DNA from: a virus
Taxonomy: Duplodnaviria > Caudoviricetes
Strand: one strand, 5' to 3'
Virus record (IMG/VR): IMGVR_UViG_3300031992_000039
Coordinates: 32,001 to 96,000 of that record
Length of the DNA stretch: 64,000 nt
The position numbers and the translations under genes are program-made. Below are positions 15,335 through 15,846 of the stretch, piece after piece; the stretch's first letter is position 1, and each line of letters starts with the position of its first letter. The notes beneath the pieces were generated by a model that saw only the letters and a program-made list of their open reading frames with translations, was not told where the DNA came from and made no database searches.

Positions 15335-15846
15335 AAAACAGCGGTAACCGCCAATAAGTGTAACCCGCTGCTGATCCGGTCATCACCCCACACCAGTACA
15401 CTGGGATGCATCTTCTAGATCTTTTCGCTCTTACTCTCGCTCGTCAATTGCGATGCGGGAAGCGACGGTTGTATGCGAATGAAGTTAGTTAATTTCTAGC
15501 GGCCGCTGATATCTTCCTTTCATGCCGCATTTAGACAGCAGCTACCTGTCCCCAGCTAATGGCTCGTTTCGTTACAATGACCAGGCTCCGAGCCATTTCC
15601 CACCTGTAACTTCATTCGCGTGCGGGTCTGGTTTTAGCACCCCGCATGATCGGCCTCAGCAAATTCCTACCGACTTTCCTGCCTAATTAGCAGGTCTAGT
15701 TGCACTTAATAGTCTACCGGAAGTTGATCGAGTTCCCGGAGGTGGCGGACTCACCTTTGCGTGGGAGTTTGTGTCTATATAGGCACTTGGGCGGTTTACT
15801 CGAACACAAGTTACTTGCAAACTGTGTTCTAAGATTGCTCCCACAA
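15335..15846 (-). ncRNA. Candidate large structured ncRNA(s)
   Basis: GC-rich and ORF-free; perfect 13-bp GCGAATGAAGTTA/TAACTTCATTCGC; ATGGCTCG/CGAGCCAT; GTGGGAG/CTCCCAC. Confidence 0.55.

What the first reader, a model, noticed from the sequence alone, without database searches (positions are those of the whole stretch)
15335..15846. ~510-nt GC-rich multi-domain structured RNA candidate directly 3' of the suppressor tRNA
Seen on the minus strand: GTGGGAG/CTCCCAC closing an ~85-nt domain with inner GAACACA/TGTGTTC; a perfect 13-bp GCGAATGAAGTTA/TAACTTCATTCGC helix enclosing ATGGCTCG/CGAGCCAT and GACAG/CTGTC; plus AGGTG/CACCT, CCGG, CCTGC/GCAGG and TGCGGG/CCCGCA hairpins. No RBS-led ORF. I do not recognise the family. 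Inference: a novel large ncRNA, or several, released by processing of the flanking tRNAs.
Basis: partly seen in the sequence, partly recalled or inferred. Interest (0 to 1): 0.72.

Follow-up and report, generated by a model that had tools for sequence, protein, structure and literature searches.

The report
Orphan spacer RNA among phage tRNAs
A 517-base gene-free, GC-rich stretch wedged between two tRNA genes of a sheep-rumen phage is real and probably transcribed, but only one folded domain of about 145 bases stands out from chance, and it has no detectable relative anywhere, so it is an unproven candidate rather than a new giant RNA.

Summary
The stretch (window 15331-15847, minus strand) fills the gap between the suppressor tRNA(CUA) and tRNA-Ser(UGA) of a complete 111-kb sheep-rumen phage. 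All six frames are closed, and GC is 0.50 against 0.37 for the genome.

Against 277 dinucleotide shuffles the whole stretch is not unusually stable or well defined (MFE z about -1.3 to -1.6). Only the perfect 13-bp helix is beyond chance (0 of 277). It closes a 145-nt four-way junction, D3 (15475-15619). An 84-nt three-way junction (D1) is marginal.

No Rfam family matches at E<=10. It is not ROOL or GOLLD, although 7 of the 10 closest relatives carry a true ROOL RNA next to their tRNAs and this complete genome has none. Searches by BLAST, nhmmer, covariance models and patterns found no homologue, so covariation cannot be tested. One sheep metatranscriptome holds 59% of the sampled words of 15200-16100.

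Best reading: a lineage-specific transcribed spacer, cut out by tRNA processing, with one or two folded modules. It is not one ornate 510-nt RNA. This scan had already noted this same stretch twice, and similar tRNA-array spacers in other rumen phages.

The parts
15331..15847 (-). Whole non-coding spacer (517 nt, GC 0.50) between tRNA(CUA) and tRNA-Ser(UGA)
   Evidence: No ORF, no Rfam match. As a whole it is not more stable than shuffles.
15761..15844 (-). D1: 84-nt three-way junction. A 7-bp closing stem GUGGGAG/CUCCCAC holds a 10-bp hairpin (15802-15829) and a small hairpin (15771-15786).
   Evidence: Pair probabilities 0.85-0.98. Local z -3.0, 1 of 200 shuffles. Not exceptional once window choice is allowed for.
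15678..15694 (-). Hairpin CCUGCU-AAUUA-GGCAGG in the linker segment D2
   Evidence: p 0.97. The segment 15620-15758 has z -0.73, which is chance level.
15622..15645 (-). Hairpin GCGGG-14 nt-CCCGC in the linker segment D2
   Evidence: p 0.90. Chance-level segment.
15475..15619 (-). D3: 145-nt four-way junction closed by a perfect 13-bp helix (arms 15607-15619 and 15475-15487) plus 3 further pairs. Inner hairpins are P2 15558-15597 (9 bp, 22-nt loop), P3 15533-15551 and P4 15499-15528.
   Evidence: p 0.93-0.99. Local z -3.63, 0 of 200. The 13-bp helix was reached by 0 of 277 shuffles and is unique in the genome.
15334..15374 (-). Terminator-like hairpin (inner form 15339-15353; outer stem CAGCGGGU/ACCGCUG) followed by UUUUU, 4 nt before tRNA-Ser
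   Evidence: Consensus scan and fold of 15331-15474. Weak. Function not shown.
15848..15941 (-). Suppressor tRNA(CUA) with a long variable arm and an encoded CCA. Its 3' end defines the 5' end of the spacer.
   Evidence: ARAGORN. Rfam tRNA 57.1 bits.
15244..15330 (-). tRNA-Ser(UGA). Its RNase P site defines the 3' end of the spacer.
   Evidence: ARAGORN. Rfam tRNA 38.4 bits.
16277..16305 (-). Promoter-like site TTGAAT-17-TATAAT upstream of a 62-aa ORF, tRNA-Lys, tRNA(CUA) and the spacer
   Evidence: Consensus scan, 10 of 12 matches. Consensus match only.

Best explanation
The stretch is the transcribed, non-coding spacer of a phage tRNA operon. It is most likely read from the promoter-like site at 16305-16277, together with a small ORF, tRNA-Lys and the suppressor tRNA. 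It would be freed as RNA of up to 517 nt when the host enzymes mature the 3' end of tRNA(CUA) and RNase P cuts at the 5' end of tRNA-Ser. These steps are inferred from the standard tRNA-processing pathway.

It is not one ornate 510-nt RNA. It holds one independently folding module that is beyond chance: D3, a 145-nt four-way junction clamped by a 13+3-bp helix. A second candidate module is D1, an 84-nt three-way junction. These are joined by linkers whose hairpins are what a 50%-GC sequence gives by chance. The stretch ends in a weak hairpin-U5 that may attenuate read-through into tRNA-Ser.

The module or modules are specific to this phage lineage. They belong to the known kind 'stable small RNAs embedded in phage tRNA clusters'. 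What D3 does (binding a protein, decoying a host factor, or only shaping processing) is not shown.
For: - Non-coding in all six frames, and no protein-family trace.
- Same strand as all ten tRNAs and flush with two of them.
- GC 0.497 in a 0.373 genome.
- The 13-bp perfect helix was reached by 0 of 277 shuffles and is unique in the 111-kb genome.
- D3 z -3.63 and D1 z -3.0, while D2 and D4 are at -0.7 and -0.3.
- High pair probabilities occur only for local helices. The only long-range pairs have p about 0.6.
- RNA run X3 (a sheep metatranscriptome from another sample and study than the source) holds 59% of 92 sampled words of 15200-16100. Only about 37% of the possible words lie wholly outside the spacer, so part of the spacer must be held.
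- In relatives, true ROOL RNAs sit in the same way flush against tRNAs. In L028, ROOL at 2029-2606 is followed by tRNA-Gln at 2615. In L030, ROOL at 8078-8679 is followed by tRNA-Met at 8703. Large RNAs matured by tRNA processing are therefore normal in this clade.
- Spacers of relatives are mosaics of shared modules.
Against: - No homologue was found, so there is no covariation, the only strong computational evidence for a functional RNA structure.
- The whole stretch is no better folded than shuffles.
- D3's stability is matched by the best window of 21 of 72 shuffles, and D1's by all of them.
- The confident helices have 70 Watson-Crick pairs and 3 G.U pairs. The plus strand folds as well or better: z -3.9 for the whole stretch and -5.2 for D3. 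The structure therefore does not identify the RNA strand, and a DNA-level inverted repeat is not excluded.
They show presence only, not ends, strand or level, and DNA carry-over in an RNA library cannot be excluded.
- The closest relatives lack the modules, which can also mean weak constraint.
Confidence: 0.5

Rival explanations
1. Plain transcribed spacer with no function of its own. The hairpins are chance products of a GC-rich sequence, and the 13-bp helix is an accident or a recent duplication-inversion. At most the 3' hairpin-U5 and the spacing matter, for processing or for attenuating tRNA-Ser.
For: - Global fold statistics are indistinguishable from shuffles.
- Nothing is conserved in the nearest relatives or in any collection.
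- The helices are almost purely Watson-Crick, as in young inverted repeats.
- A terminator-like site lies at the 3' end.
Against: - 517 nt of non-coding DNA at 50% GC is unexpected for neutral sequence in a 37%-GC phage that is otherwise densely coding.
- The 13-bp perfect helix was reached by 0 of 277 shuffles and is unique in the genome.
- It encloses three further well-defined hairpins.
- It is held in RNA-run contigs.
Confidence: 0.3
2. One large ornate RNA of about 510 nt that works like ROOL or GOLLD, for example as a self-assembling RNA particle. It would replace the ROOL RNA that this phage, unlike its relatives, does not carry.
For: - Seven of the 10 closest relatives by ClpP carry ROOL at 257-310 bits beside their tRNAs. 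This complete genome has none at E<=10.
- The size (517 nt against 574) and the tRNA-flanked position are alike.
- ROOL and GOLLD are phage RNAs near tRNA islands that form cages (PMC5737381; PMC12286853).
Against: - No global architecture is seen. The long-range pairs have p about 0.6 only, and the whole-element z is -1.3 to -1.6.
- Palindromes that could mediate self-pairing are at chance level: nine 6-mers against 7.8+-2.9 expected, and four 8-mers against 1.9+-1.3, P 0.11.
- It does not sit at the ROOL position. In the relatives ROOL lies upstream of tRNA-Met and ClpP; here small ORFs lie there.
- The phage has other GC-rich spacers that could equally be candidates.
Confidence: 0.08
3. A DNA-level element or a remnant: a decayed foreign insertion (for example a MITE-like unit bounded by the 13-bp inverted repeats), a decayed gene, or a protein-binding inverted repeat, rather than an RNA structure.
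For: - The inverted repeats are perfect and strand-symmetric.
- The plus strand folds at least as well.
- The composition is atypical for the genome.
- Orphan status.
Against: - There is a single copy in the genome, with no flanking target duplication.
- No reverse transcriptase and no tyrosine integrase is encoded in the genome.
- The open fragments show no protein-family trace.
- It lies inside a co-oriented tRNA operon, where it must be transcribed.
Confidence: 0.08
4. A highly diverged member of the ROOL (or GOLLD) family itself.
For: Context only: the relatives carry ROOL, and ROOLs within this clade are only 46-60% identical to each other, so divergence is fast.
Against: - No match to RF03087 at E<=10, in an 801-nt search with lax filters or in the whole genome with 8 candidates scored.
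- No match to RF02032.
- An nhmmer profile built from the seven ROOLs of the clade, run with --max, gives nothing in the stretch.
- None of the conserved ROOL motifs in the consensus is present.
Confidence: 0.02

Closest known systems
ROOL RNA (Rfam RF03087; Weinberg et al. 2017, PMC5737381; Kretsch et al. 2025, PMC12286853)
   Same: A non-coding RNA of about 500-600 nt in rumen phages, lying next to or between tRNA genes and probably matured with them. It is present in 7 of the 10 closest relatives of this phage.
   Different: No match to the ROOL model or to a clade-specific profile. No ROOL motifs, no global closing helix, no support for multistem and pseudoknot complexity, a different position in the array, and no family of its own.
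GOLLD RNA (Rfam RF02032)
   Same: A large phage or prophage RNA near tRNA islands, sometimes with tRNAs linked to it.
   Different: No match at E<=10 in the whole genome. The stretch is much shorter than the 800 nt or more of many GOLLD RNAs.
Small stable RNAs of the phage T4 tRNA gene cluster (species 1 and 2, RNA C and RNA D). Named from my own knowledge, not checked in a paper here.
   Same: Folded RNAs of roughly 120-140 nt and unknown function, encoded among phage tRNA genes, co-transcribed with them and released by the tRNA-processing enzymes. This is what D3 (145 nt) and D1 (84 nt) most resemble in kind.
   Different: No sequence or structural relation was tested or is expected. Stability and processing of D1 and D3 are not shown.
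Modular spacer RNAs of rumen-phage tRNA arrays noted earlier in this scan (e1-3726769, e1-5746290, e1-4032023)
   Same: GC-rich, ORF-free gaps in tRNA operons that turn out to be strings of separately folding modules rather than one giant RNA. Spacers of this phage's relatives also share modules with each other.
   Different: Those modules recur in many contigs. D1 and D3 recur nowhere in what could be searched.

Membership tests
ROOL (RF03087) | Match to the Rfam covariance model at or above 99.1 bits | tested here: not met
   No match even at E<=10 in 15200-16000 or in the whole genome. The same model scores 257-310 bits in seven relatives, which serves as a positive control.
ROOL (RF03087) | Conserved sequence blocks of the consensus (for example GUGAAGA, GGAUAC, ACAAUAGA, UCUGAAUG, GUAAUCAAUC, UCAGAC) | tested here: not met
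   Consensus compared with the sequence: none is present. The clade-specific nhmmer profile finds nothing in genome 47331-47847.
ROOL (RF03087) | Large (about 580 nt) RNA in phages or prophages, often beside tRNAs (PMC5737381) | tested here: met
   517 nt, flanked by two tRNAs in a complete phage genome. This is context only and does not define membership.
GOLLD (RF02032) | Match to the Rfam covariance model at or above 150 bits | tested here: not met
   No match at E<=10 in the whole genome, 38 candidates scored. None.
tRNA or tRNA-like element (RF00005, ARAGORN) | Cloverleaf with acceptor and T arms | tested here: not met
   ARAGORN and Rfam find only the flanking tRNAs, with no extra match at E<=10 inside 15331-15847.
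Any other Rfam family (OLE, ribozymes, RNase P, tmRNA, 6S, T-box, pRNA, drum and others) | Match to a covariance model | tested here: not met
   All 4227 families were scanned. At E<=10 there were three weak plus-strand matches at 13-20 bits, far below their gathering scores; two lay mainly on or at the tRNA-Ser gene and one (sX9) inside D3.
Structured non-coding RNA in general | Compensatory base changes across homologues | not testable with these tools
   No homologue was found in any collection or locus. See the negative searches listed under Tried and rejected.
Structured non-coding RNA in general | Folding energy beyond dinucleotide shuffles | tested here: inconclusive
   Whole stretch z -1.3 to -1.6. 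D3 -3.63 and D1 -3.0 with boundaries chosen afterwards. The best-window control is not significant. The 13-bp helix is significant.
Retron ncRNA or group II intron | Associated reverse transcriptase | tested here: not met
   No RVT_1 match in the complete genome at E<=1.
Phage attachment site (attP) | Integrase encoded by the phage | tested here: not met
   No Phage_integrase (PF00589) match at E<=1. Serine recombinases were not tested.
Intrinsic terminator (3' end only) | GC-rich hairpin followed by a U run | tested here: inconclusive
   A 6-bp stem with a 3-nt loop, or an 8-bp outer stem, followed by UUUUU at 15334-15353. Such sites are as frequent in shuffles (5 found, 4.2 expected).

The most novel reading that the evidence does not exclude
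This phage has lost the ROOL RNA that most of its relatives carry. The 517-nt stretch, or its D3 core, would then be an unrelated, newly evolved RNA that does the same unknown job next to the tRNAs. That would be an independent third solution beside ROOL and GOLLD, in a genome where the swap can be dated against close kin.
Probability: 0.07. Interest if true: 0.75.

Novelty: new member of a known kind. Interest (0 to 1): 0.3.

Why it matters
If D3 (or the whole spacer) is a working RNA, it adds a lineage-specific case to the growing set of unexplained RNAs embedded in phage tRNA operons. It would do so in a phage that has no ROOL while 7 of its 10 closest relatives carry it, a natural comparison for asking what ROOL-type RNAs do. 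As the evidence stands, the finding mainly shows that a hairpin-dense look in a 50%-GC spacer is not evidence of an ornate RNA. Without homologues the claim rests on one long helix and on word shares in one RNA library.

Tried and rejected
Known RNA families, rejected:
- Rfam at gathering scores and at E<=10 gave nothing.
- ROOL was rejected and GOLLD was rejected.

Homologue searches, all negative:
- blastn against GenBank phages, for the whole stretch, D3 and D1. The one D1 hit was 21 nt in a Vibrio phage protein gene at E=9.
- nhmmer and blastn against 104 fetched loci.
- Single-sequence covariance models R1 (D3) and R2 (D1), run against the window, 92 loci and five whole records. R1 was also run with filters off on the six nearest loci and gave only trivial hairpins.
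- All-against-all comparison of tRNA-array spacers, and profiles built from their families.

Pattern scans of the collections:
- tRNA-Ser 20-mer, viral contigs: 0 hits.
- D3 17-mer, viral contigs: one chance hit in coding DNA.
- D1 17-mer, viral contigs: seven chance hits. The five I classified lie at a stop codon followed by a terminator or in a coding-looking stretch; no tRNA was found in any of the seven loci.
- D3 19-mer, metagenome contigs: 0 hits.
- D3 purine/pyrimidine pattern, metagenome contigs: one chance hit in high-GC DNA.
- D3 and D1 purine/pyrimidine patterns, genome contigs: 0 hits each.

Synteny through neighbouring proteins:
- The 289-aa and 558-aa neighbours have no relatives in viral contigs.
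- The deoxyribosyltransferase neighbour has no relative above 66% identity among 5.8 billion protein clusters. No intermediate relatives of this phage are on record.

Tools that gave no result:
RNA ends, strand and level could not be examined.
The second contig that encodes the identical neighbour protein (111,341 bp) and the contigs of the 62-66% relatives could not be fetched.

Other readings, rejected:
- Retron or group II intron: no reverse transcriptase.
- attP: no tyrosine integrase.
- Decayed gene: no family match.
- Multi-copy mobile element: single copy.
- Self-pairing palindromes: at chance level.

Not used as evidence:
- The sliding 150-nt z-scan used 20 shuffles per window, which is too noisy to use.

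Full report
**What is there**

The window is part of a complete 111,327-bp IMG/VR phage genome with direct terminal repeats, from sheep gut. On the minus strand, ten tRNA genes lie between 11734 and 16055. The finding is the 517-nt gap at 15331-15847. It begins directly after the encoded CCA of a suppressor tRNA(CUA) with a long variable arm (15848-15941). It ends directly at the first base of tRNA-Ser(UGA) (15244-15330).

All six frames carry 7 to 12 stop codons of mixed kinds, so no genetic code opens a frame. The longest open fragments match no Pfam or PHROG family. GC is 0.497 against 0.373 for the genome.

**Is it more than chance?**

Taken as a whole, it is not:
- The minimum free energy has z -1.64, and 7 of 100 dinucleotide shuffles fold as well.
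- With pairs limited to 200 nt and 277 shuffles, the energy has z -1.33.
- There are 62 pairs with probability above 0.9, against 42+-21 in shuffles.
- Positional entropy is 0.77, against 0.99+-0.23.

A 50%-GC sequence of this length is dense with hairpins anyway.

Split into four parts, the picture differs:
- D1 (15759-15846) has z -3.0, with 1 of 200 shuffles as stable.
- D3 (15473-15621) has z -3.63, with 0 of 200.

I set these boundaries after seeing the helices. When the best 149-nt window of each whole-element shuffle is taken, 21 of 72 are as stable as D3, and D1 is not exceptional.

One feature survives every control. The perfect 13-bp helix is longer than the longest perfect helix of all 277 shuffles (7.7+-1.0 bp). 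It is also the only mixed-composition perfect inverted repeat of 13 bp or more with widely spaced arms in the whole genome. It closes a 145-nt four-way junction with three well-defined inner hairpins, with pair probabilities of 0.93-0.99.

The confident helices have 70 Watson-Crick pairs and 3 G.U pairs. The plus strand folds as well or better. The structure alone therefore does not say which strand matters, or even that RNA rather than DNA is the level of selection. Gene and tRNA orientation points to the minus strand.

**Known families**

No Rfam family reaches its gathering score. In a lax search of 801 nt, the only matches at E<=10 apart from the flanking tRNAs were three plus-strand matches at 13-20 bits, far below their families' gathering scores.

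ROOL is absent from the whole genome at E<=10, and so is GOLLD. A profile built from the seven ROOL RNAs of the relatives also finds nothing in the stretch.

The genome encodes no reverse transcriptase and no tyrosine integrase. That removes the retron, group II intron and attP readings.

**Relatives**

The neighbouring genes were used to find kin. The deoxyribosyltransferase just downstream has no relative above 66% identity among 5.8 billion protein clusters, apart from the identical protein on two contigs. This phage lineage is therefore isolated in public data.

An alignment of ClpP, which lies 4 kb downstream, brought ten relatives at 51-72% identity. All have tRNA arrays upstream of ClpP. 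Seven of them carry a true ROOL RNA at 257-310 bits, usually flush against a tRNA and just upstream of tRNA-Met and ClpP. ROOL and GOLLD are phage RNAs of unknown function near tRNA islands that assemble into cages (PMC5737381; PMC12286853).

This phage, although complete, has no ROOL. That is the most interesting thing I saw. But the 517-nt stretch does not sit at the ROOL position, shows no global architecture, and has palindromes only at chance level. So the idea that it replaces ROOL is only a possibility.

**Search for homologues**

Nothing related was found. The searches were:
- BLAST against GenBank phages.
- nhmmer and BLAST against 104 fetched loci.
- Single-sequence covariance models of D3 and D1 against the window, 92 loci and five whole records, including a run with filters off.
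- Exact and purine/pyrimidine-degenerate patterns across the viral, metagenome and genome collections.

The few pattern hits were chance matches: those whose sequence I read lie in or at the end of coding-looking DNA, none lies near a tRNA, and no locus gave a significant model match.

The spacers of the relatives do share modules with each other and with another spacer of this phage (12480-13403). None is shared with this stretch, even with profiles built from those module families.

ROOLs within this clade are only 46-60% identical to each other. A homologue of D3 at that distance could escape a single-sequence model. Absence of hits is therefore weak evidence of absence, but it leaves covariation untestable.

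**Expression**

A sheep-gut metatranscriptome run, from a different sample and study than the source DNA, holds 59% of 92 sampled words of 15200-16100. A second run holds 23%. Only about 37% of all possible words lie wholly outside the spacer, so part of the spacer must be in those RNA-run contigs.

I could not lay the runs. The single read-laying run was lost to a filter elsewhere in the stretch I sent.

**How it most likely works**

These steps are inferred, not shown:
- A promoter-like site at 16305-16277 would drive a 62-aa ORF, tRNA-Lys, tRNA(CUA) and the spacer.
- 3' maturation of tRNA(CUA) and RNase P cleavage at tRNA-Ser would release the spacer.
- A weak hairpin-U5 at 15334-15353 may attenuate read-through into tRNA-Ser.

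Within the released RNA, D3 and perhaps D1 would fold on their own. In kind they resemble the small stable RNAs of the T4 tRNA cluster (from my own knowledge) and the modular spacer RNAs that this scan has reported from other rumen phages.

**Odds and verdict**

| Reading | Odds |
|---|---|
| Transcribed spacer with at least one selected module | about 0.5 |
| Plain spacer with chance structure | about 0.3 |
| ROOL-like single large RNA | about 0.08 |
| DNA-level element or remnant | about 0.08 |
| Diverged ROOL | about 0.02 |

This is a candidate of an already familiar kind, without the comparative evidence that would make it a new RNA class.

Noticed in passing
L015 7843-8450; L016 6804-7400; L028 2029-2606; L029 7672-8262; L030 8078-8679; L032 8329-8923; L034 7898-8464: Seven of the ten closest relatives (by ClpP) carry a full-length ROOL RNA (257-310 bits) in or beside their tRNA arrays, usually just upstream of tRNA-Met and ClpP. 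This complete genome has none at E<=10. The ROOLs of the clade are only 46-60% identical to one another.
   Followed up: partly
L017 7116-7627; L031 5109-5705; L033 7219-8679: In the three relatives without a ROOL match, the ROOL position (upstream of tRNA-Met and ClpP) is filled by tRNA-flanked spacers of 512, 597 and 1461 nt. These share modules with spacers of other relatives but match no Rfam family. They may be further uncatalogued RNAs or very diverged ROOLs.
   Followed up: no
L015 10001-10621: The ClpP gene of the 127-kb relative has one in-frame stop codon, at a position where the alignment consensus of the relatives has alanine. It reads through when TAG is taken as glutamine.
   Followed up: partly
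window 12480-13403: This other long spacer of the same tRNA array shares sequence modules with spacers of L015, L030 and L031 (blastn E<=1e-3). The stretch studied here shares none.
   Followed up: no
window 16176-16325, 11301-11450, 12426-12575 (minus strand): 150-nt windows with strongly negative folding z-scores (-5.6, -4.4, -4.0; only 20 shuffles each, so rough). They lie at the promoter and leader of the small ORF before tRNA-Lys, at the start of ClpP, and just downstream of tRNA-Leu.
   Followed up: no
genome 14233-16297 (outside the window, upstream of window position 1): A cluster of perfect AT-only inverted repeats of 13-18 nt built on TATATAATATATT. It looks like a repeated promoter-like or origin-like motif.
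   Followed up: no
L010 7602-7963; L012 7907-8268: Two huge rumen phages (332 and 394 kb) that share the deoxyribosyltransferase gene carry a tmRNA (about 139 bits) within tRNA arrays of more than 25 genes. L012 also carries a tRNA with anticodon UUA (an ochre suppressor).
   Followed up: no
L016 4236-4286: A DUF3800-XI RNA (RF02975, 49.4 bits) sits directly in front of tRNA-Gly inside a relative's tRNA array.
   Followed up: no
window 4641-5867, 9817-10638, 10649-11401: An RNA ligase (PHA02142 OB-fold plus RNA_ligase), a PhoH-like ATPase and a ClpP protease lie on the same strand just downstream of the tRNA and RNA island.
   Followed up: no
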